A DNA stretch of 64,000 bases, taken from assembly GCA_000004985.1 (NCBI GenBank), contig GG738874.1. One strand, given 5' to 3'. How positions within the stretch are numbered: the stretch's first letter is position 1; each line of letters opens with the position of its first letter. The notes under the pieces were generated by a model. That model was not told where the DNA came from, did no database searches, and was given only the letters and a program-made list of their open reading frames with translations. Below, one piece after another: positions 10,934 through 51,165 of the stretch. Source of the DNA: Naegleria gruberi. Taxonomy: Eukaryota. The position numbers and the translations under genes are program-made.

Positions 10934-13900
10934 ATGATTATCATTATGGAGAGTGGGGATCATGGTTCTTTGCAGTTGTGTTATGTGGTTGTTTTCCTGT
11001 CGTGTCCAATGAGTTTTGCCATGTCCACCTTTATAGATTGCAAGTGGATCAATATGGAAGGGTTTTCTCAAACCTCCTCTACACGAATGATTCTGAATAG
11101 ATTCAATACATTTTTTCAGGAGGAGAGATATTGCTATACGAGTACCAATATTGTCTTTCTAGTGATATTTCTGGTCACACATTTTCTGTTATCACTAATT
11201 TGTGCCTTCTCCACAACTGTCCTCTCCAATTCCCACCCACTCTCAAAAACTGTTTTTGTTGCAGATGCTAGTTTTGTTCCTGCCTTAATGTTTATGAGTA
11301 ACTTGATGGAGATTTTATTTCACTTTATTATTCCATCTAATTATGCATTTGTGAGATCGATCATTCACATAATCATGGCCTTAATATTTATAATATTCCT
11401 CTTTAAAAACATTACATATATGAGGAGAACAGACAATTCGATAATATCAGGATTTGGATTTGCCAAGTTGGGAGCAAGTGTTGGAAAGCTGATATCATTC
11501 TTTGTTAATAGAGATAATGTCAATAATACTCAAAATTACAACACGTATGGAATTATCATGACATGTGTGACAATAGGATTGGTAATATTTGGGTTTATTA
11601 TAGGGTTCATTGTAATGGAAATTTACACCAGATATATTGTTTATACCATACGTAAGGTATTGGAGAATATTATTATGCTAGCTGATAGATCTCAGTACTA
11701 CGAGCAAAGTAATGATGATTTGGATATGCAAGATAATCAAGAGAGTCAAATCATTGTTTATGAGAAAATAATTGAGAGGGAAGCACCAATGTTATACCAC
11801 AAAATTGACTCTGAAAAGAGAATGAAATTTCTGGTATATTATTTGAACTTTTGTATGCATAGGAATGTCGATGAGTTGATGAATAGCTCTCACCCCTCCG
11901 CCCATAAGAAGGTTTCCAGAATTGAATCAATTGGAATGACAGATACACATGTCGCTTTATGCTTTATCAAGGGTCTTTTTGGAGGTTCTACTTCGATTGT
12001 TACAAATGTCGGCCTCATGTTAACTTGTAGCTCACTTGTTGCTTACTACTGGCCTTCTTCAGCAGAGTCAGTTAACACAACATTATTTGCAAATAGCTTG
12101 TTAAGAAAAGCTCTCAAAAAGCAGCCATCATTTATTCAAAGATTCTTGATAGGTATCAAGATTAAGGAAATTGAGGTGAACGCTGATGAGAAAACTCGAC
12201 TCATGTTTGAGGCGAAACATCTGGTGTCAAAGTTAGAAAGAAGACAACAAGAGTTGAAAGCTCTTCATAGAAATTTCTGGAAAGAACTAACCCATGAAGT
12301 GGTCAATTATGAAAAAATTGAATCAATCATATTAAGGGCAAGTGAATTATCAAGTAAATGCGAAACTCACTACGAAAACCTCAGGCTTACATACCGTCAT
12401 GATAAATCACTATTGAGATCACATGCCCAATTCCTTGAGACCTGTAGATTTGATCCAGATATTGCTCACGAAATGTACAACGAAGCAAGCCTTATGGAGG
12501 AAGAAGATTCTGCCAACCATGCAATGAAATCCAAAAGTAACTTGATGGCAACGGTCAATATTGCAGAAAGAAGGAAAATGTGGAGGGATCAAGCAAAAAA
12601 CAGACCTAACAATAGAGGAATGGCTAATGGAAATGTGAAAGTGGTTCCAGTGAATGGAAATAAGGATATGGTAAGAGGTGATTCCACAAGCTCCATCGAG
12701 GGAAAAGAGGGACAAGAAGAATATGGACACCACTTTGAAATGATAGACCCAAGAACATCGCTCAGTTATTCAGATCAGTTACCATTCGATGGTGTTGAAA
12801 ACTTTGGAAATGTGCGAAAGGAAACAATATTTAGAACTTCACTTTCTGTACCTCACAGACACACTTTTCAACTTGGTGGATTTATTGCTTTCTTTATCTT
12901 GTCTGTATGTCTTTTAATATCTTCATCCATTCTGAGTGGTCTGATATCCTATGAGGTTACGGATGATTTACAAATTGTAAAGACAGGATGCATTCCAACT
13001 TCCTCTATAGTTCAAATGATTACAAAATTGAGATCCCTCAAGTTTGCTAATAGTCTTTACTCTCAAAAATCTTGGCCCACTGAAATGACATCGCTTGGGT
13101 TTAAAAACTTGACCGATTTCAATACCAAGATGTGGACAGATTTTAAACAATATTATTCATATTTTATTGCTCTAAGAGATATGAGTATGAAAGATAGAGT
13201 CCTAACACCAACCATGTATGATGAGTTCCATGAAAGATACTACCCAATGCTGACACCTGAAATATCATCTGGAAGCGAAATTATATTATACAATTCTACC
13301 AAGGCAGTCAATATTTCAATTGCTGATATTACCAACTTGGTAATCAAGTACTCTGAAGACTTGATAAGAACTCGTGATTCAGATCATACGTTTACTAATT
13401 ATGGCTTTATGTTCTTTTATGATAACCATGATTACATTACCAAAGCTTTTAGCCAATTTTGCTCTGTTCTTATTGATGAATCCAAACATGAAGCTTCACA
13501 GGTAGATATCGCTTATATGGCCTTCCTTATTGTAGCCCTTGTGGTTTATCTTCTCTACGGAACTGGTTATATCATTTACACTCACATTTCCCTTAAATTT
13601 GTCAAGTCACAAATCAAACTCATTGAGCATGAAATTTCTAAAAACATAGCTGGTCGTTTATTCCATGATTTAGAAAAGAAAGTGAGTGATGACGTAACTG
13701 TTCGTCTTCCAAAATCCAAGTTATTGAGACCAAAGAATATCATTATCATGCTGAGTATTTCATTAATGATTTTAATGGCCGTATGTGCTGGATTGCTTTA
13801 CTTTGGAAATAGATACAATGCAGAAAAGATTGCTTCCTCTTTTATTTCATTTAGACATGCCACAAACAGTATGTTTTATGTCCAGAGAATAGCCTTTGCT

Positions 13901-15802
13901 GTCACTGAACAATTTACAAATAAGGTTTTGGGAGGTTCATTGCAATCAAGTGAAGAACTATATTTAATGAACCAAGATTTAGAGGAGAATGTTCAAAGTC
14001 TGAGAGAGAACTGGAATTTGTGTTTATACGGTGACTCAAAAGAAGTTTATACCTCCATAATGAATAGAGGAATTTTAGGCCTGTTTTCTGAAGTAGATAA
14101 TCTAATAATTGGAGAATCTAACTGTACATTCTCAGAATTCAGGTATTCATATAATGTTTCTTCAAAATGTTTCCTTAGTTTGAATTCTCTCCTCACCGAT
14201 TACATGTCTTTGTCTACTCAGTTCAACAGTGTGTTAAAAGTCAAAAATATCAATAGCAGTGACATGGACATTGTGGATCAGTATGCTCAAGCTACATTCC
14301 TCTCCAATATGATAACAATGGATGTAGTCGAGATTTCCTCTGTAATTTCAGAAAATTACTCTAACCCAGCTTTTGAAATATTGATCACTTTCTCTATTGT
14401 TGGATCTGTGTCCATTTTGCTATTCTCGTACTTGATACATTTGTATCTTACAAAATATTGGAATTCCATTCAAGAAATGAGATTATATTTCAATTATATC
14501 AGTGTGGAAACACTTGATTCAAATGAAGCATTGAGAAATTATTGTATCCACCATTTGGTTAATGACACCTTCTTGCTAAAGAGGAGAAATATGAACAATA
14601 CATCCCTTCAAGATTCCAAAGTGAGAAGCTTATTGAACGCTTCAGTAGATGGTGCAGTCATGTGTTCTGGGCAAACCTGTGATATTGATATTTTCAATCC
14701 TGCTGCTCAAAGAATGTTTGGTTACAATCAAACTGAAACTGTGGGAAGGCCACTTTTTGATTTGTTTGATTCGTTGAGTCAGCAATCTATTAGGAAAATG
14801 GTATCAGATATGCTTCAAGGGGCTTCTGAAGCTCAATCAAAAGGAGATGCTCTCGATGCTGAATGTGTAAGAAAGAATCAAACAACTTTCCCTGCAAGAG
14901 CCAATATTTTCCTAACCAAACATGATAACAAACCAATCATTACCATATTTATCAAGGATATAACATCAGAGAAGAAACATTTAGCCCTCATTGCTGAAGA
15001 AAAGAAGCACTCTGAAGAACTGTTATTGAACATTTTGCCTGATGCTGTGGCTTCTAAACTCAAATCTGGTGAAACATTTATTGCAGAAAAGTTTGCTGAT
15101 ATCACTTGCTTCTTTTCTGACATGGTAAACTTTACAAGAATTAGTTCTGACATGAATCCTTCTGAGCTAGTTTTGATGTTGAATTTTATTGTAAATGGTT
15201 TTGATGAATTGATAACCAAGTATAATTTAGAAAAGATCAAGACCATTGGTGATGCTTATTTTGCTGTTGGAGGTCTTCATGGTCTGAATGCACAATCAGA
15301 TCACCCCGAAAGAACTCTTAAATTTGCAATTGATACCTACCAAGTTGTCTCCAATTATAATTCCAAGAGTGGAAAACCAATGAGAGAACAAATTAACATT
15401 AGAATTGGAATGCACACTGGAAGTGTTGTGGCAGGAGTTATTGGAAAACTCAAGTTCGCTTACGATTTATGGGGAGATACTATCAACATGGCATCAAGAA
15501 TGGAATCGAATTCAGTGAATGGAAGGATTCAAATTAGTAGAACGACCTATGAAAGAGTGTATGATCTTGGTTTTTCATTTGAAGAGAGAACGATCAATGT
15601 TAAGGGAAAGGGAGAAACTTTAGCTTATTTGTTAGATTCCAAACATCATACCTCAGCTATTGTTAATCATGAGGTGATTGAAGACAGTGAGGAGATTGAA
15701 TCGGTTGTCTTACCTCCAAGGGACACTCTTGAAGTTATTCCACTGAGAGAATCAGCTTCCAATCACACAGACCTTGTAGATTTAGCTCCCTCCACTCCTT
15801 AA
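10934..15802 (+). CDS. Large multi-pass membrane class III nucleotidyl cyclase with a PAS sensor domain; predicted adenylyl cyclase; 5' end uncertain
   Basis: Multiple hydrophobic helices occupy the N-terminal half and the middle of the protein. A PAS-like segment (SVDGAVMCSGQTCDIDIFNPAAQRMFGYNQTETVGRPLF) precedes the catalytic domain. The CYCc domain carries FADITCFFSDMVNF, KIKTIGDAYFAVGG and GMHTGSVVAGVIGKLKFAYDLWGDTINMASRMES. The specificity residues are Lys (KIKTIGD) and Asp (YDLWGD), which predict ATP use. The upstream S/N-rich ORF 10291..11100 overlaps in another frame. It has a TM-like segment, a candidate GTAAAA donor near 10795 and candidate acceptors near 10853 and 11117. The true 5' exon structure is therefore unresolved. 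Confidence 0.75.
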   Translation: MIIIMESGDHGSLQLCYVVVFLSCPMSFAMSTFIDCKWINMEGFSQTSSTRMILNRFNTFFQEERYCYTSTNIVFLVIFLVTHFLLSLICAFSTTVLSNSHPLSKTVFVADASFVPALMFMSNLMEILFHFIIPSNYAFVRSIIHIIMALIFIIFLFKNITYMRRTDNSIISGFGFAKLGASVGKLISFFVNRDNVNNTQNYNTYGIIMTCVTIGLVIFGFIIGFIVMEIYTRYIVYTIRKVLENIIMLADRSQYYEQSNDDLDMQDNQESQIIVYEKIIEREAPMLYHKIDSEKRMKFLVYYLNFCMHRNVDELMNSSHPSAHKKVSRIESIGMTDTHVALCFIKGLFGGSTSIVTNVGLMLTCSSLVAYYWPSSAESVNTTLFANSLLRKALKKQPSFIQRFLIGIKIKEIEVNADEKTRLMFEAKHLVSKLERRQQELKALHRNFWKELTHEVVNYEKIESIILRASELSSKCETHYENLRLTYRHDKSLLRSHAQFLETCRFDPDIAHEMYNEASLMEEEDSANHAMKSKSNLMATVNIAERRKMWRDQAKNRPNNRGMANGNVKVVPVNGNKDMVRGDSTSSIEGKEGQEEYGHHFEMIDPRTSLSYSDQLPFDGVENFGNVRKETIFRTSLSVPHRHTFQLGGFIAFFILSVCLLISSSILSGLISYEVTDDLQIVKTGCIPTSSIVQMITKLRSLKFANSLYSQKSWPTEMTSLGFKNLTDFNTKMWTDFKQYYSYFIALRDMSMKDRVLTPTMYDEFHERYYPMLTPEISSGSEIILYNSTKAVNISIADITNLVIKYSEDLIRTRDSDHTFTNYGFMFFYDNHDYITKAFSQFCSVLIDESKHEASQVDIAYMAFLIVALVVYLLYGTGYIIYTHISLKFVKSQIKLIEHEISKNIAGRLFHDLEKKVSDDVTVRLPKSKLLRPKNIIIMLSISLMILMAVCAGLLYFGNRYNAEKIASSFISFRHATNSMFYVQRIAFAVTEQFTNKVLGGSLQSSEELYLMNQDLEENVQSLRENWNLCLYGDSKEVYTSIMNRGILGLFSEVDNLIIGESNCTFSEFRYSYNVSSKCFLSLNSLLTDYMSLSTQFNSVLKVKNINSSDMDIVDQYAQATFLSNMITMDVVEISSVISENYSNPAFEILITFSIVGSVSILLFSYLIHLYLTKYWNSIQEMRLYFNYISVETLDSNEALRNYCIHHLVNDTFLLKRRNMNNTSLQDSKVRSLLNASVDGAVMCSGQTCDIDIFNPAAQRMFGYNQTETVGRPLFDLFDSLSQQSIRKMVSDMLQGASEAQSKGDALDAECVRKNQTTFPARANIFLTKHDNKPIITIFIKDITSEKKHLALIAEEKKHSEELLLNILPDAVASKLKSGETFIAEKFADITCFFSDMVNFTRISSDMNPSELVLMLNFIVNGFDELITKYNLEKIKTIGDAYFAVGGLHGLNAQSDHPERTLKFAIDTYQVVSNYNSKSGKPMREQINIRIGMHTGSVVAGVIGKLKFAYDLWGDTINMASRMESNSVNGRIQISRTTYERVYDLGFSFEERTINVKGKGETLAYLLDSKHHTSAIVNHEVIEDSEEIESVVLPPRDTLEVIPLRESASNHTDLVDLAPSTP

Positions 15803-46907: not shown

Positions 46908-47330
46908 TTATTGTTGGACAGGTTGTTGGGTAAAGCTTTCAACAGAGCTCATAACATTAAGGCGATTAGAGTTTAAGTTTTCTTTAGCTAGTGGACTTTC
47001 GTGATGTTTCTCCTTCAATAAATAGGGTTGAGAAAGTCCTTTTCCTTTCACTTCAACCATTCTCTCTTCAAACTCAAATAAATCATAAACTCTGTAGGTA
47101 GATCTGGAAATTTGAATTCTTCCTGGATGACTTGCTTGAATGTAAACCACTCACACAGAAATAAGCATCTCCAATGGTCTTTATCTTGTCAACCAAGTGA
47201 ATTTCAGTCAACTTGTTAAATCCTTGAACAATTAAATTCAATATTTGAATTCAAAATTTGGACCAGTTCACTTGGTAATGTTGAACTCCGAGCTGTAAAT
47301 CCAACCATATCACTGAAAATACATTGTTTT
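46908..47330 (-). pseudogene. Decayed fragment of a class III adenylyl cyclase catalytic domain
   Basis: On the minus strand three frames successively match the C-terminal CYCc domain of the cyclase at 15.1-15.6 kb. The matches are DMVGFTARSSTLPSELVQILN (then stop), KIKTIGDAYFCVSGLHS, and GRIQISRSTYRVYDLFEFEERMVEVKGKGLSQPYLL. Compare DMVNFTRISSDMNPSELVLMLN, KIKTIGDAYFAVGGLHG and GRIQISRTTYERVYDLGFSFEERTINVKGKGETLAYLL. The fragment carries frameshifts and a deletion of about 100 codons. Confidence 0.75.
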
Positions 47331-48261: not shown

Positions 48262-48333
48262 GGCCGTATAGCTCAGTGGTAGAGCTTCTCTCTCGTAAGG
48301 AGAAGGTCGTGGGTTCAAACCCCATTGCGGCCA
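48262..48333 (+). tRNA. tRNA-Thr (anticodon CGU)
   Basis: The acceptor GGCCGTA/TGCGGCC pairs. The D-arm is GCTCAGTGGTAGAGC. The anticodon loop CTCGTAA gives CGT. The T-arm is GTGGG-TTCAAAC-CCCAT. Total length is 72 nt. Confidence 0.85.
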
Positions 48334-48341
48334 AATTTGAA

Positions 48342-48512
48342 TTTTAATCTTTTGCTATTCCTCGCTTTGTTTTTTGATATTTTTACTTTATTTTTTCAAA
48401 TTCTCACATTTACAAGTTTATCTACATGTGGTTCAATTTTCCAATCTTTAATTCAAGAAATGATTGAGAATGAGCTGTTCTAAAGTGGGTACATGATTTT
48501 TCGCTTGAATTT
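48342..48512. repeat. Direct repeat copy 1 (tRNA-proximal) of the element flanking the HNH gene
   Basis: The blocks ttttaatcttttgctatt and aattttccaatctttaattcaagaaatgattgagaa..agctgttctaa.....gtacatgatttttcgcttgaattt recur at 50383..50495 in the same orientation. Copy 1 carries a 75-nt internal segment that copy 2 lacks. Confidence 0.8.
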
Positions 48513-48923: not shown

Positions 48924-49847
48924 TTATTTTTCCATAGACAATACTCTTTGAAAACTCAACAAGTTCACCATTCTCTCCTTCATTCCTAAATCAATAACTT
49001 CCGATCTTGCATGCTTTTCCATGTGCTCAAAATAATGGCACCCATCGCAAAGCAATTCAAATTCCTTCAATTTTTCTACTTGTTCCTCTTCGGTCATTCC
49101 AAGAATTAACTTGTACTCATTAACATTATTGGCTATTTCCCTCTCTTCCTCATCGATATCTTCTGTTGCTTGAGCTCTCTTCTTCACACCATCCCTATTC
49201 TTGTGATGCACATGGAATATCTTTCCCAATTCTGAATTAGATTCAAAAGACAAGCCACATTCCTGACATTTTCCTCCCATCAGAGTGATCATCTTTTCAT
49301 GACAATATTGCCAATTAGAACCACCTTCAACATTCCTTGCATGTTCCAAACCATGACAAGGTCTGCACAATACTTCCAACTTTTCATTCTTCTTGAACCA
49401 ATCAGCTCCAAGCTTTCTGAATTCGGGAATGAATTTTGTTGTACTCTTAAATGTCTTTGTAAAGTCATCATCTTTATACATGACATGATGAAGAGTGAAT
49501 GCATTAACCTCATGTAAATGTTCCATTTCAATACGACATCTATTGCACTTGATTGACAAATCATCCCTCTCCAACACTTCTCTTAAAAAAGTATGAATGG
49601 CAGCTTGCTTTTTTCTGGAAATGTAAACAGCACATCTGGGACATGTTTCATCATCCTTCAATTTAACAGAACCAAAACAAAAATGGCAGTTGACACCTTC
49701 AGCTCTAATCTTGTTAATCCTGTCACTCATTTGAAGTATAGTCTTTTTGGAACATTCCTTGCACTTGTCCCTATTTGTCTTCGAAACAAGTTGGCCGCAT
49801 CCACACAACCCTTGGTCTCTACGAGTGCATTTTCGTGCTCTTTCCAA
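48924..49847 (-). CDS. Zinc-ribbon protein with two tandem HNH (His-Me finger) nuclease motifs
   Basis: An N-terminal CxC...CxxC ribbon (GLCGCGQLVSKTNRDKCKEC) is present. Two modules follow with the CxxC...HH...N...LCxxCH architecture. The first reads CNRC...TLHHVMYKD...KNEKLEVLCRPCHGLEH. The second reads CQEC...FHVHHKNRD...LLCDGCHYFEH. The ATG at 49847 opens a 307-aa ORF that could be expressed on its own. Confidence 0.6.
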   Translation of the reverse strand: MERARKCTRRDQGLCGCGQLVSKTNRDKCKECSKKTILQMSDRINKIRAEGVNCHFCFGSVKLKDDETCPRCAVYISRKKQAAIHTFLREVLERDDLSIKCNRCRIEMEHLHEVNAFTLHHVMYKDDDFTKTFKSTTKFIPEFRKLGADWFKKNEKLEVLCRPCHGLEHARNVEGGSNWQYCHEKMITLMGGKCQECGLSFESNSELGKIFHVHHKNRDGVKKRAQATEDIDEEEREIANNVNEYKLILGMTEEEQVEKLKEFELLCDGCHYFEHMEKHARSEVIDLGMKERMVNLLSFQRVLSMEK

Positions 49848-50372
49848 CTCGTTAGCTCTCTCACGTTGCTCATTGGATTGAGCAATGTGATTACTTAACT
49901 TCTTAACAAAATCTCTAAAGCCATTAGAGTATTGAAAAGTTCCATCATGAATAGCATTTTTGAATTTCTACCAAGTTTCTATTCTCTTTTCATTATTCTT
50001 GAATTTATCTGGGAAATGATCATACAATTCTTGGACATATGCAAGATAAGCCCTTGCCAATTTCGAACCATATTCATGAGAAATATTGGATGAAGGTCTT
50101 GGAGGACACTTGTTGAGTTTAACATTATCCAATATGGGAAGGAATTCTTCCAAGATTGAATTGTTGGGTTGATTTCTCTTCTTGGTTGGTGGAGTTGATT
50201 CAATGGTAGAATCCCTTCTCTTCTTACTATCATTACTTGATGAAGGCTTGTTGGAATTATTTGAAGATTGACCAGAGTTGCTAATAATAATACATGATGA
50301 TTGACTAGTTGATGATGATGAAGCCTTTCTGGTAGACTTTGGTTGAATTGATAACGTGGTTGATGATAACAC
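49848..50372 (-). pseudogene. In-frame 5' extension of the HNH gene, interrupted by a TAG and lacking any ATG
   Basis: The 134-codon ORF 49968..50372 (Ser/Asn-rich, ...KFKNNEKRIETW) ends in TAG at 49968-49970. It continues in the same frame through KFKNAIHDGTFQYSNGFRDFVKKLSNHIAQSNEQRERANELERARK into the HNH ORF, since 49967 minus 49847 equals 120. The extension begins right after a TAA and its first sense codon is GTG. It contains no Met codon. Confidence 0.55.
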
Positions 50373-50382
50373 TTGATTTCCT

Positions 50383-50495
50383 TTTTAATCTTTTGCTATT
50401 TTCTCCACCATTTCGCTAATTTTCCAATCTTTAATTCAAGAAATGATTGAGAACTAGCTGTTCTAATCTTGGTACATGATTTTTCGCTTGAATTT
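50383..50495. repeat. Direct repeat copy 2, immediately 5' of the HNH gene extension
   Basis: See the feature at 48342..48512. Confidence 0.8.
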
Positions 50496-50873
50496 TTGCC
50501 TTGAAAAACATCAGATTTTCATAATGTTGTAAATTTACCAATGCCTTGAAAAACATGTTTTCAGTCGTAATTGAGTAAACAATCAGGAGTTTGGCTAATT
50601 TTAAAAATGCATGTTGTTATTGTATTGTTATCACCATCAAGTTCTTTCACAATCTCCATTTTTGAGTGACAACACATTCATTTTGATAAGGATGTACGAT
50701 TTGTTCACATTTCACACAAACAAACCTTCTATTTATGACCAATTTGAAGAAGAAACTCTTTTCAACAAAAATTTTCACGTTAATGAATCTGATTATCAAT
50801 ACATTCATTGTATTTTTGAATTTCACTTGATTGAAATTTTTCAAGGCTTTGAAATTTCAATGGATAGTACGTT

Positions 50874-51165
50874 TCATAGTTCAGTAAAGATGAACAGCAC
50901 ATGTGTCGGCTGTACTGTCAAGGCTTGGGATGAGAGTATACTAATATCTGGAATCATCTTCTTCATCTTGTCACTCATTGGGATTGTATTCTTTTTGGAA
51001 CATTCTTTGCACTTGTCCCTATTTGTCTTCGAAACAGGTTGGCCGCATCCACACAACCCTTGTTCTCTACGAGTGCATTTTCTTGCTCTTTCCAATTCAT
51101 TAGCCCTCTCACGTTGCTCATTGGATTGAGCAATGTGATTACTCAAGTTCTTCACAAATTGATTT
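50874..51165 (-). pseudogene. Truncated second copy of the HNH gene 5' region
   Basis: About 190 nt (50960..51152) are roughly 90% identical to 49721..49910. They encode ...KNLSNHIAQSNEQRERANELERARKCTRREQGLCGCGQPVSKTNRDKCKECSKK, then diverge and terminate. Confidence 0.75.

What the first reader, a model, noticed from the sequence alone, without database searches (positions are those of the whole stretch)
49848..50372. Single in-frame TAG separating two ORFs of the same frame, with an ATG-less N-terminal segment
The 134-codon minus-strand ORF ending at 49968 runs directly into the HNH ORF in the same frame. The distance from 49967 to the ATG at 49847 is exactly 40 codons of sense sequence (KFKNAIHDGTFQYSNGFRDFVKKLSNHIAQSNEQRERANELERARK).

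The second, truncated copy at 50874-51165 preserves this linker as NLSNHIAQSNEQRERANELERARK. The region was therefore coding in the ancestor.

Possible explanations are a recent nonsense mutation (pseudogene), programmed readthrough, or a sequencing error.
Basis: seen in the sequence. Interest (0 to 1): 0.55.

Follow-up and report, generated by a model that had tools for sequence, protein, structure and literature searches.

The report
Premature stop hidden by annotated intron
The in-frame TAG is most likely a real premature stop codon in a decaying copy of a Naegleria-specific double-HNH nuclease-like gene, and the reference annotation hides it inside an implausible 69-base intron, so the finding is an ordinary pseudogene or gene-model problem.

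Summary
The window is Naegleria gruberi NEG-M nuclear DNA. The in-frame TAG (49970-49968, minus strand) is real and separates 138 stop-free codons from a 347-codon ORF. There is no ATG at 49847. That codon is TTG, and the first in-frame ATG is at 49730.

The locus is already annotated as NAEGRDRAFT_68753 (XP_002676134.1). Splicing 50808-50726, 50280-50037 and 49967-48924 reproduces that protein exactly. The model removes the TAG with an in-frame 69-nt "intron" (50036-49968, GTCCAA...GGTAG).

That intron is almost certainly spurious:
- Its 23 codons align in frame with two homologues that read straight through. BLASTP gives E=2e-11, and the stop aligns with a Lys.
- All eight confident introns in the window start GTNNGT.
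- 65 other GT..AG intervals would also remove the stop in frame.

The copy also lacks its 5' end. Its frame opens at a duplication junction (50375/50376) beside a second, fragmentary copy (51158-50956).

Homologues elsewhere are also damaged: one is frameshifted and two are truncated.

Verdict: nonsense mutation in a 5'-truncated, decaying family member. Sequencing error, a real intron and readthrough remain minor alternatives.

Side lead: the family lay within 1.3 kb of a tRNA gene at all four Naegleria or Naegleria-like loci examined.

The parts
49968..49970 (-). In-frame TAG, the premature stop
   Evidence: It aligns with a Lys in homologue P0007. TAG is used as a terminator elsewhere in the window and never occurs inside the long ORFs.
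49971..50384 (-). Upstream stop-free segment of 138 codons with no ATG. 50372-50157 is Ser/Asn-rich low complexity. 50156 onwards is the start of a conserved N-terminal domain.
   Evidence: The stretch 'VKLNKCPPRP...ARAYLAYVQELYDHFPDKF' matches the L002 conceptual translation at E=4e-6. The frame opens inside the f' repeat at the unit junction 50375/50376.
49848..50060 (-). Conserved N-terminal domain segment that spans the TAG
   Evidence: BLASTP against P0007 residues 11-79: 36% identity over 72 aa, E=2e-11, colinear and in frame on both sides of the stop. Coordinates.
49968..50036 (-). The 69-nt in-frame 'intron 2' of RefSeq/JGI model NAEGRDRAFT_68753 (GTCCAA...GGTAG). Judged spurious.
   Evidence: Splicing it out reproduces P0011 exactly. 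It encodes VQELYDHFPDKFKNNEKRIETW*, homologous to LRLLYNAFPEVF--TPTIVENLK in P0007. Its donor is unlike the 8/8 GTNNGT donors of confident introns in the window. It is one of 65 frame-preserving GT..AG intervals that remove the stop.
48924..49967 (-). Downstream ORF of 347 codons plus TAA. It holds the rest of the N-terminal domain, two CxxC...CxxC zinc ribbons (49805-49752 and 49688-49632) and two HNH-like domains.
   Evidence: The last 200 residues are about 95% identical to three N. gruberi paralogue models.
49341..49547 (-). HNH-like domain 1 (CNRC...LHH...LCRPCHGLEH)
49023..49268 (-). HNH-like domain 2 (CQEC...HVHHKNRDG...NEY...LCDGCHYFEH)
   Evidence: PHROG HNH families match weakly: phrog_3106 here at E 0.4, and phrog_589 at E 0.03 on residues 189-236 between the two domains. 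The N. fowleri homologue is named 'HNH domain-containing protein' by UniRef.
50726..50808 (-). Exon 1 of the RefSeq model (MNVLIIRFINVKIFVEKSFFFKLVINR), which supplies the ATG. Unsupported.
   Evidence: It has no counterpart in L002 by tblastx. It is a hydrophobic, AT-rich-type translation and lies in the degraded second unit.
50281..50725 (-). 'Intron 1' of the RefSeq model (GTTTGT...TTATTATTAG, 445 nt)
   Evidence: It is longer than the window's confident introns (42-177 nt). It contains the f'/A' repeat and 30 codons of the in-frame Ser-rich segment.
50956..51158 (-). Fragmentary second copy (B') of the gene's linker and first zinc ribbon
   Evidence: 91% identity over 203 nt to 49708-49910. 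There are 7 synonymous and 11 non-synonymous differences, pN/pS 0.36. An upstream TAA bounds it and similarity is lost downstream.
48335..48512 (+). Non-coding module f (48335-48359) plus A (48409-48512), starting directly after the tRNA-Thr 3' end
   Evidence: It is repeated at 50376-50400 and 50392-50495 at 86-94% identity. It recurs directly after tRNA-Leu in L002. Rfam finds no RNA family and the alignment shows no covariation.
50376..50495 (+). Second copy of the f/A module (f', A'). Its left edge at 50375/50376 is the junction where the gene's frame opens.
48262..48333 (+). tRNA-Thr(CGT), tail-to-tail with the gene and 590 bp from its stop codon
   Evidence: ARAGORN. Rfam tRNA, 69.8 bits.

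Best explanation
The TAG is a genuine premature stop codon that arose by point mutation. The aligned residue in homologues is Lys, so one or two substitutions would suffice. It lies inside the conserved N-terminal domain of a Naegleria-lineage gene.

The encoded protein has this layout:
- a Ser/Asn-rich low-complexity region;
- a helical N-terminal domain;
- two zinc ribbons;
- two tandem HNH (beta-beta-alpha-metal) nuclease-like domains.

This copy is also 5'-truncated. Its reading frame opens exactly at the junction between two tandem units next to a tRNA-Thr gene, so it has no start codon of its own.

The locus is therefore a recently disabled family member. At most it could still express an N-terminally truncated HNH protein from an internal AUG (49730 or 49526).

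The reference gene model NAEGRDRAFT_68753 makes the locus look intact in two ways. It borrows an ATG from an unsupported upstream exon, and it declares the 69 nt ending in the TAG to be an intron. Both look like automated gene-modelling artefacts.

Shown directly: the TAG, the frame continuity, the homology across the stop, the identity with the RefSeq model, the atypical splice donor, the truncation junction, and damage in other family members.

Inferred: that the TAG is a mutation and not a base-calling error, and that the locus is non-functional.
For: Identity of the locus:
- P0011 (XP_002676134.1, N. gruberi) is reproduced exactly from window exons 50808-50726, 50280-50037 and 49967-48924.

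The 'intron' is coding sequence:
- BLASTP of the N-terminal segment alone against P0007 gives E=2e-11 over 72 aa. The alignment runs in frame through the 23 'intron' codons and the stop, and X aligns with K.
- The L002 conceptual translation matches 'ARAYLAYVQELYDHFPDKF' at E=4e-6.
- Neither homologue has an interruption at that point.

Splice signals:
- Eight confident introns in the window have donors GTAAGT x4, GTATGT x2, GTTTGT and GTAGGT. They are 42-177 nt long with A+T 0.72-0.88.
- The candidate has donor GTCCAA, A+T 0.70 and a purine-rich 3' end.
- 65 GT..AG intervals of 30-400 nt remove the stop while keeping the frame. The existence of one such interval therefore carries no weight.

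TAG is an ordinary stop in this genome:
- Two long ORFs end in TAG.
- Frames of up to 1624 codons contain no TAG.

Missing 5' end:
- There is no in-frame ATG before codon 215.
- The frame opens at 50384, inside repeat f' (50376-50400), which elsewhere directly follows a tRNA 3' end.

Decay elsewhere in the family:
- The L002 homologue has a frameshift about 10 codons downstream of the equivalent position, plus an in-frame TAA further upstream.
- The N. lovaniensis copy lacks the second HNH domain.
- The N. fowleri copy retains only the second HNH domain.
- Three N. gruberi paralogue models start at an internal Met.
- A 203-bp fragment copy lies 1 kb away in the window.
Against: - No reads or transcripts could be inspected, so a base-calling error or a heterozygous sense allele is not excluded.
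- The 347 codons after the TAG are fully open.
- The paralogues differ from this copy mostly by conservative replacements (K/R, E/D, I/V).
- pN/pS between the two in-window copies is 0.36.
- Those three points show that the family was under selection until recently, so the downstream part may still be functional.
- The homologues that span the stop are distant (36-37% identity), and P0007 comes from an unidentified metagenomic organism.
- DNA of the close N. gruberi paralogues could not be retrieved, so the ancestral codon is not known.
- L002 also lacks an obvious ATG for its low-complexity N-terminus. The true 5' structure of the family is therefore not established.
Confidence: 0.72

Rival explanations
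1. The RefSeq/JGI model is right. The 69 nt at 50036-49968 are a genuine in-frame spliceosomal intron, and the mature mRNA encodes an uninterrupted 456-aa protein.
For: - GT...AG boundaries are present.
- The length is a multiple of 3.
- Removing the interval yields an open frame identical to XP_002676134.1.
- The length falls within the range of real introns in the window, 42-177 nt.
Against: - The interval encodes residues conserved in frame with two homologues (LY.FP..F motif).
- The donor GTCCAA lacks the +5 G and +6 T seen in 8 of 8 confident local introns.
- Its composition resembles the surrounding coding sequence: A+T 0.70, purine-rich.
- 64 other intervals would do the same job.
- No homologue has an intron at this position.
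Confidence: 0.07
2. The TAG is a sequencing or assembly error, or one haplotype of a heterozygous site. The organism then has an uninterrupted frame at this position.
For: - It is a single-base feature in an otherwise open 482-codon frame.
- The downstream ORF is intact, and the substitution pattern shows recent constraint.
- No reads are available to check.
Against: - The copy carries an independent defect: no start codon, because it is truncated at the unit junction.
- Disruptions are the rule in this family at other loci and in other species.
- From general knowledge, a substitution error in finished Sanger-based assembly is uncommon. This was not tested here.
Confidence: 0.1
3. Programmed stop-codon readthrough, or decoding of TAG as an amino acid, produces the full-length protein from this locus.
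For: - The frame is continuous on both sides of the stop.
- The 118 nt after the stop fold somewhat better than shuffled sequences (z = -2.44; 3 of 200 shuffles fold as well).
Against: - Homologues have a sense codon (Lys) at the aligned position, not a conserved stop.
- TAG terminates other genes and is absent from all long ORFs in the window.
- The context UAG-A is, from general knowledge of eukaryotic termination, not a leaky one. No CARYYA-type or CUAG motif follows the stop.
- There is no start codon to initiate the upstream part.
Confidence: 0.03
4. Functional truncation. The TAG and the missing 5' end do not matter, because the expressed product is a shorter double-HNH protein. It would start at an internal AUG (49730, or MEHLHEV at 49526), as annotated for the three 200-aa paralogues. 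The upstream ORF is then a leader remnant.
For: - Three paralogue models (NAEGRDRAFT_64726, 76872 and 76940) start at exactly this internal Met. They differ by only 2-12 mostly conservative residues, and all catalytic and zinc ligands are retained.
- The 347-codon frame is intact.
Against: - A product starting at MEHLHEV would lack the CNRC zinc-ligand pair of HNH domain 1, which lies just upstream of that Met.
- The 200-aa models are themselves automated predictions, and their upstream DNA could not be examined.
- No expression data are available.
Confidence: 0.08

Closest known systems
HNH / His-Me finger nuclease superfamily (Pfam PF01844 HNH; e.g. Cas9 HNH domain, Cap5, ZRANB3, McrA, phage GVE2 HNH)
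   Same: - Both C-terminal domains carry the CxxC ... HH ... N ... CxxCH ... H pattern, and these columns are invariant across homologues.
- PF01844 matches 4 of 7 homologues below threshold.
   Different: - The window protein does not reach any Pfam, NCBIfam or PDB sequence threshold.
- Two HNH units are arranged in tandem, each with a 25-35 residue insertion between the HH and the CxxCH.
- The gene is in a eukaryotic nuclear genome.
- Nuclease activity is untested.
Unitary or duplicated pseudogenes whose stop codons are masked by spurious introns in automated eukaryotic gene models
   Same: - A short in-frame GT..AG interval ending at the stop codon is annotated as an intron.
- The ATG is borrowed from a distant, unsupported exon.
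- Homologues show that the 'intron' is coding.
   Different: Nothing material. This is the category that the finding itself falls into.
Free-standing homing endonuclease genes and their gain, degeneration and loss cycle (phage and organelle HNH HEGs; Naegleria rDNA group I intron His-Cys box endonucleases)
   Same: - A small nuclease-like gene family.
- Lineage-restricted and patchy distribution.
- Several near-identical copies in one genome.
- Most examined copies are truncated, frameshifted or stopped.
   Different: - The genes are not inside an intron or intein.
- No evidence of homing or of a recognition site.
- The location is chromosomal, next to tRNA genes.
- Similarity to the Naegleria rDNA His-Cys box enzymes was not tested.
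tRNA-gene-targeted mobile elements of compact eukaryotic genomes (Dictyostelium TRE5/TRE3 and DGLT-A, yeast Ty3)
   Same: - Copies lie within 23 bp to 1.3 kb of a tRNA gene at 4 of 4 Naegleria-type loci.
- Two tandem units abut one tRNA, with the more degraded unit further away.
- A shared non-coding module begins at the tRNA 3' end.
   Different: - No reverse transcriptase, integrase or transposase.
- No target-site duplications or terminal repeats were found.
- Distance and orientation relative to the tRNA vary between loci.
- Two more distant homologues have no tRNA on their contigs.

Membership tests
Spliceosomal intron (the 69-nt interval 50036-49968 annotated in XP_002676134.1) | GT...AG boundaries | tested here: met
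   GTCCAA...GGTAG. However, 65 frame-preserving GT..AG intervals span the stop, so this is uninformative.
Spliceosomal intron (the 69-nt interval 50036-49968 annotated in XP_002676134.1) | Donor matching the organism's 5' splice-site consensus | tested here: not met
   All 8 confident introns in the window have GTNNGT donors: GTAAGT, GTATGT, GTTTGT or GTAGGT. The candidate has A at both +5 and +6.
Spliceosomal intron (the 69-nt interval 50036-49968 annotated in XP_002676134.1) | The interval is non-coding, with no in-frame protein conservation | tested here: not met
   It aligns in frame with P0007 (E=2e-11 for the segment) and with L002.
Spliceosomal intron (the 69-nt interval 50036-49968 annotated in XP_002676134.1) | Spliced transcripts exist | not testable with these tools
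   No N. gruberi transcript or read data are accessible.
Pseudogene (disabled copy of a protein-coding gene) | A premature stop or frameshift relative to intact homologues | tested here: met
   The TAG aligns with Lys inside a conserved domain.
Pseudogene (disabled copy of a protein-coding gene) | Loss of the start codon or 5' end | tested here: met
   There is no in-frame ATG before codon 215, and the frame opens at the unit junction 50375/50376. Caveat: the family's true 5' end is not established.
Pseudogene (disabled copy of a protein-coding gene) | Relaxed selective constraint | tested here: inconclusive
   pN/pS is 0.36 over only 67 codons against the fragment copy. Differences from the paralogues are conservative. 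DNA of the close paralogues is unavailable.
Pseudogene (disabled copy of a protein-coding gene) | No full-length product is expressed | not testable with these tools
   Requires RNA-seq or proteomics.
Programmed stop-codon readthrough | The stop codon is conserved at the same position in homologues, with coding constraint downstream | tested here: not met
   P0007 and L002 have Lys at the aligned position. Close paralogues are untestable.
Programmed stop-codon readthrough | A leaky stop context or a stimulatory downstream element | tested here: inconclusive
   The context is UAG-AAA-UUC, which matches no known readthrough motif (general knowledge). The downstream fold has z = -2.44.
HNH endonuclease (Pfam PF01844, His-Me finger) | Sequence match above the curated threshold | tested here: not met
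   The window protein has no Pfam hit at E<=1. 4 of 7 homologues match PF01844 only below threshold, best E 0.0037. PHROG HNH families match at E 0.03-0.4.
HNH endonuclease (Pfam PF01844, His-Me finger) | Catalytic and zinc motif: CxxC, HH, N, CxxCH, H | tested here: met
   The motif is present twice, and its columns are invariant in the alignments.
HNH endonuclease (Pfam PF01844, His-Me finger) | Beta-beta-alpha-metal fold | tested here: inconclusive
HNH endonuclease (Pfam PF01844, His-Me finger) | Nuclease activity | not testable with these tools
   Requires a biochemical assay.
tRNA-gene-targeted mobile element | Non-random proximity to tRNA genes | tested here: met
   A tRNA lies within 1.3 kb at 4 of 4 Naegleria-type loci: Thr-CGT, Leu-CAG twice, and Leu-TAA. 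The sample is small, and two of the loci may be orthologous.
tRNA-gene-targeted mobile element | Defined termini, target-site duplication, and fixed distance and orientation | tested here: not met
   No terminal or target-site repeats were found. The arrangement is tail-to-tail at two loci, head-to-head at one and tandem at one. Distances range from 23 bp to about 1.3 kb.
tRNA-gene-targeted mobile element | Encodes a transposition enzyme (RT, integrase or transposase) | tested here: not met
   Only the HNH-like protein is present. Pfam, PHROG and NCBIfam give no other domain.

The most novel reading that the evidence does not exclude
The gene belongs to a previously undescribed selfish element of heterolobosean nuclear genomes. 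The element would be a double-HNH nuclease gene that travels with a short conserved non-coding module (f/A) and inserts or duplicates at the 3' side of tRNA genes. It would leave tandem arrays in which older units decay. The TAG-bearing copy would be one stage of that cycle. This would be a eukaryotic nuclear tRNA-associated element that depends on an HNH nuclease, not on a reverse transcriptase or integrase.
Probability: 0.2. Interest if true: 0.6.

Novelty: new member of a known kind. Interest (0 to 1): 0.25.

Why it matters
For the finding itself, the significance is small. It shows that a RefSeq protein of the model amoeboflagellate N. gruberi (XP_002676134.1) is probably a gene-modelling artefact built over a disabled, 5'-truncated gene copy. 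It is also a clear example of how in-frame 'introns' hide pseudogenes in automated protist annotations.

The wider lead is of moderate interest and remains unproven. It concerns an uncharacterised, lineage-restricted double-HNH family. Its copies are mostly damaged and lie next to tRNA genes in three Naegleria species and in one further, unidentified Naegleria-like organism. If this family were shown to be mobile, it would add a new kind of tRNA-associated element in eukaryotes.

Tried and rejected
- **Word-indexed protein search.** The full 482-aa query found nothing, probably because low-complexity words swamped the candidate list. The exhaustive HMMER search then found 10 relatives.
- **Exact look-ups of window genes.** Three neighbouring window genes and the N. 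gruberi paralogues P0001, P0011, P0012 and P0013 were not on record in the DNA collection. The paralogue DNA, and therefore the codon at the TAG position in close copies, could not be examined.
- **Collection scans.** One viral-contig scan and two metagenome-contig scans found no relatives.
- **Sequence searches.** Pfam, NCBIfam and PDB sequence searches of the window protein gave no significant hit.
- **Rfam and RNAalifold on the f/A module.** No RNA family, no covariation.
- **Synteny between the N. lovaniensis locus and the window.** The neighbouring cyclase gene gave no support.
- **Initial guess of a dictyostelid origin.** Rejected once the exact match to N. gruberi proteins appeared.
- **Alternative introns.** GTAGAA at the stop itself, and GTATGA...TTTAG (111 nt), were rejected. 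They either create a new stop or remove conserved residues, and neither has the consensus donor.
- **Literature.** Searches found no paper on this family, on HNH genes near Naegleria tRNA genes, or on the accession SRR21279712.
Full report
**1. What the window is**

The window is A+T-rich (about 35% G+C). It has long ORFs interrupted by short GT-AG introns and carries three tRNA genes.

An exhaustive HMMER search with the 347-codon ORF found ten relatives. Cluster look-up showed that four of them are Naegleria gruberi proteins. One of these, P0011, is the 456-aa protein EFC43390.1 / XP_002676134.1 (NAEGRDRAFT_68753).

Joining window segments 50808-50726, 50280-50037 and 49967-48924 on the minus strand reproduces P0011 exactly. 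The window is therefore N. gruberi NEG-M reference sequence, and the finding lies in an already annotated gene model.

**2. Checking the observation**

Confirmed:
- On the minus strand, one frame is open from 50384 to 49971.
- It is interrupted by a single TAG at 49970-49968.
- It is open again from 49967 to 48927, a stretch of 347 codons followed by TAA.
- The 40-codon 'linker' count is correct.

Not confirmed:
- The 'ATG at 49847' is wrong. The codon there is TTG (Leu).
- The neighbouring ATG at 49830-49828 is out of frame.
- The first in-frame ATG in the whole 482-codon frame is codon 215, at 49730.

The truncated second copy is real. 51158-50956 is 91% identical to 49910-49708 over 203 nt without gaps.

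**3. The two ORFs were one gene**

- Homologue P0007 is a 177-aa metagenomic protein. It aligns colinearly with the end of the upstream ORF, the stop, the linker and the first zinc ribbon.
- BLASTP restricted to the part N-terminal of the zinc ribbons gives 36% identity over 72 residues, E=2e-11. The stop (X) aligns with a Lys: IETWXKFKNAIHD against VENLKYFENILKK.
- The conceptual translation of a second homologous locus, L002, matches 'VKLNKCPPRP...ARAYLAYVQELYDHFPDKF' at E=4e-6. L002 is a Logan contig from run SRR21279712 and encodes P0002.
- The 18 differences between the two in-window copies are 7 synonymous and 11 non-synonymous, giving pN/pS 0.36. This fits a period of coding constraint after duplication.

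**4. The annotated intron**

The reference model removes the TAG with a 69-nt in-frame 'intron'. Its sequence is GTCCAAGAATTG...ACTTGGTAG at 50036-49968, and it translates to VQELYDHFPDKFKNNEKRIETW*. Four observations argue that it is not an intron.

- **It is conserved coding sequence.** The 23 codons align in frame with LRLLYNAFPEVF--TPTIVENLK of P0007 and IRLLYNAFPKPFTKKLIRNLK of L002. They share the LY.FP..F pattern.
- **The donor is atypical.** Eight introns in the window can be placed with confidence, because a long open frame ends at the donor and resumes after the acceptor. Their donors are GTAAGT x4, GTATGT x2, GTTTGT and GTAGGT. Their lengths are 42-177 nt and their A+T content is 0.72-0.88. 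The candidate's donor is GTCCAA, its A+T content is 0.70, and its 3' end is purine-rich like the surrounding coding sequence.
- **Such an interval is expected by chance.** Sixty-five GT..AG intervals of 30-400 nt span the TAG, keep the frame and leave no stop. A gene predictor will always find one.
- **The model's start is unsupported.** Exon 1 (MNVLIIRFINVKIFVEKSFFFKLVINR, 50808-50726) has no counterpart in L002. It reaches exon 2 through a 445-nt 'intron' that contains a conserved repeat and 30 in-frame codons of the Ser-rich segment.

**5. Why there is no ATG**

Besides the 203-bp repeat, there is a second direct repeat made of two parts:
- f: 48335-48359 is similar to 50376-50400.
- A: 48409-48512 is similar to 50392-50495.

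These parts are 86-94% identical. Copy f starts one base after the 3' end of tRNA-Thr(CGT), which lies at 48262-48333.

On the plus strand the layout is:

[tRNA][f][A][411 bp][gene, minus strand][f'][A'][460 bp][gene fragment, minus strand]

This is two tandem units. Their junction, at 50375/50376, falls where the tRNA would end.

The gene's reading frame opens at 50384, inside f'. This copy therefore lacks whatever 5' end the ancestral gene had. In L002 the same frame continues about 110 Ser/Thr/Lys-rich codons further upstream. The ATG-less N-terminus is most simply a 5' truncation at the unit junction.

**6. The family and its condition**

The protein's architecture is:
- a low-complexity region;
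- a helical N-terminal domain;
- two CxxC...CxxC zinc ribbons;
- two units with the pattern CxxC...HH...N...CxxCH...H.

No curated model reaches significance for the window protein. Three weak lines of evidence agree on an HNH assignment:
- the motif itself;
- PF01844 matching 4 of 7 homologues below threshold, best E 0.0037, together with PHROG HNH families at E 0.03-0.4;

Most copies examined are damaged:
- L002 has a frameshift about ten codons after the position equivalent to the TAG, and an in-frame TAA upstream.
- The N. lovaniensis gene, P0008, ends after the first HNH unit.
- The N. fowleri gene, P0005, retains only the second HNH unit.
- A low-coverage metagenomic copy, L005, is split over at least four frames.
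- The three other N. gruberi models are 200-aa products that start at an internal Met.

Only the metagenomic P0004 (430 aa) looks intact.

The four N. gruberi C-terminal regions are all open. They differ by 2-12 mostly conservative residues. Decay is therefore recent, or the C-terminal half retains a function.

**7. Alternatives**

- **Reassigned TAG.** Excluded. TAG terminates at least two long ORFs in the window and is absent from frames of up to 1624 codons.
- **Readthrough.** Disfavoured. The stop is not conserved in the homologues, the context is UAG-A, and there is no start codon upstream. The 118 nt downstream fold modestly better than shuffles (z -2.44), which I regard as insufficient.
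- **Sequencing error or heterozygous allele.** Cannot be tested without reads. The independent loss of the 5' end, and the prevalence of disruptions in the family, make an otherwise intact gene unlikely.
- **An expressed truncated product from 49730 or 49526.** This remains possible and is compatible with the main explanation.

**8. Side observations**

The family lies next to a tRNA gene at all four Naegleria-type loci:

| Locus | tRNA | Position relative to the gene |
|---|---|---|
| Window | Thr-CGT | 590 bp, tail-to-tail |
| N. lovaniensis (L001) | Leu-CAG | about 420 bp upstream of the annotated start |
| L002 | Leu-CAG | 0.8-1.3 kb upstream |
| N. fowleri (L003) | Leu-TAA | 23 bp, tail-to-tail |

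The two more distant metagenomic loci have no tRNA on their contigs.

The f/A module recurs directly after the tRNA-Leu of L002, with 83-97% identity over 29-60 nt. It is absent from the other two tRNA genes of the window.

Orientation and distance vary between loci, and no terminal repeats or target duplications were found. A tRNA-associated mobile HNH element is therefore only a hypothesis, to which I give about 0.2 probability.

**9. Verdict**

The feature is real, but its explanation is ordinary. It is a premature stop in a 5'-truncated, decaying member of an uncharacterised HNH-like family, and an implausible intron in the reference annotation conceals it.

Interest is low for the finding as stated. 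The family's association with tRNA genes is a modest lead worth a genome-wide test.

Noticed in passing
window 48262-48333; L001 5497-5577; L002 2541-2621; L003 5515-5599: All four Naegleria or Naegleria-like loci of this HNH-like family lie within 23 bp to about 1.3 kb of a tRNA gene (Thr-CGT, Leu-CAG, Leu-CAG, Leu-TAA). Relative orientations vary. Two more distant metagenomic loci (L004, L005) have no tRNA on their contigs.
   Followed up: partly
window 48335-48512 and 50376-50495; L002 2622-2762: A conserved non-coding module (f plus A, core TGATTGAGAAnnAGCTGTTCTAA) begins right at the 3' end of tRNA-Thr in the window. It is repeated 2 kb away without a tRNA, and it recurs right after tRNA-Leu in L002 at 83-97% identity, although the adjacent proteins are only 38% identical. 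There is no Rfam match and no covariation. It is absent from the window's other two tRNA genes. Its function is unknown.
   Followed up: partly
window 46983-47323 (minus strand): Fragments of an adenylate/guanylate cyclase catalytic domain, in three pieces. They are 60-65% identical to the C-terminus of the intact 1622-aa cyclase ORF at 10934-15802. This is a second pseudogene fragment in the same tRNA-proximal region.
   Followed up: partly
L002 3400-3960: The homologue on this Logan contig (SRR21279712) has its N-terminal domain in a different frame from the zinc-ribbon and HNH part. The frameshift is at ...KVIRNN|LPFKYKKLF, about 10 codons after the position of the window's TAG. There is also an in-frame TAA further upstream. 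The gene caller therefore started the protein at an internal Met.
   Followed up: yes
L001 5404-5511: Three tandem 36-nt repeats lie immediately 3' of the N. lovaniensis tRNA-Leu(CAG). Each repeat includes a copy of the last dozen bases or so of the tRNA. This could mean repeated rearrangement at the tRNA 3' end.
   Followed up: no
L001 6001-6972; L003 5001-5492; L005 6193-7426: Other family members are partial. N. lovaniensis P0008 stops after the first HNH unit. N. fowleri P0005 keeps only the second. The L005 copy is split over at least four frames, but that contig has only 1.6x coverage, so errors are possible.
   Followed up: partly
window 49850-49967 (minus strand): The 118 nt following the TAG fold somewhat better than shuffled controls (MFE -26.9 kcal/mol, z = -2.44, 3 of 200 shuffles as good). 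This is probably incidental.
   Followed up: no
window 50372-50157 (query artefact): Including the Ser/Asn-rich low-complexity segment in the query made the word-indexed protein search return nothing. An exact match (P0011) and paralogues about 95% identical were nevertheless in the collection.
   Followed up: yes
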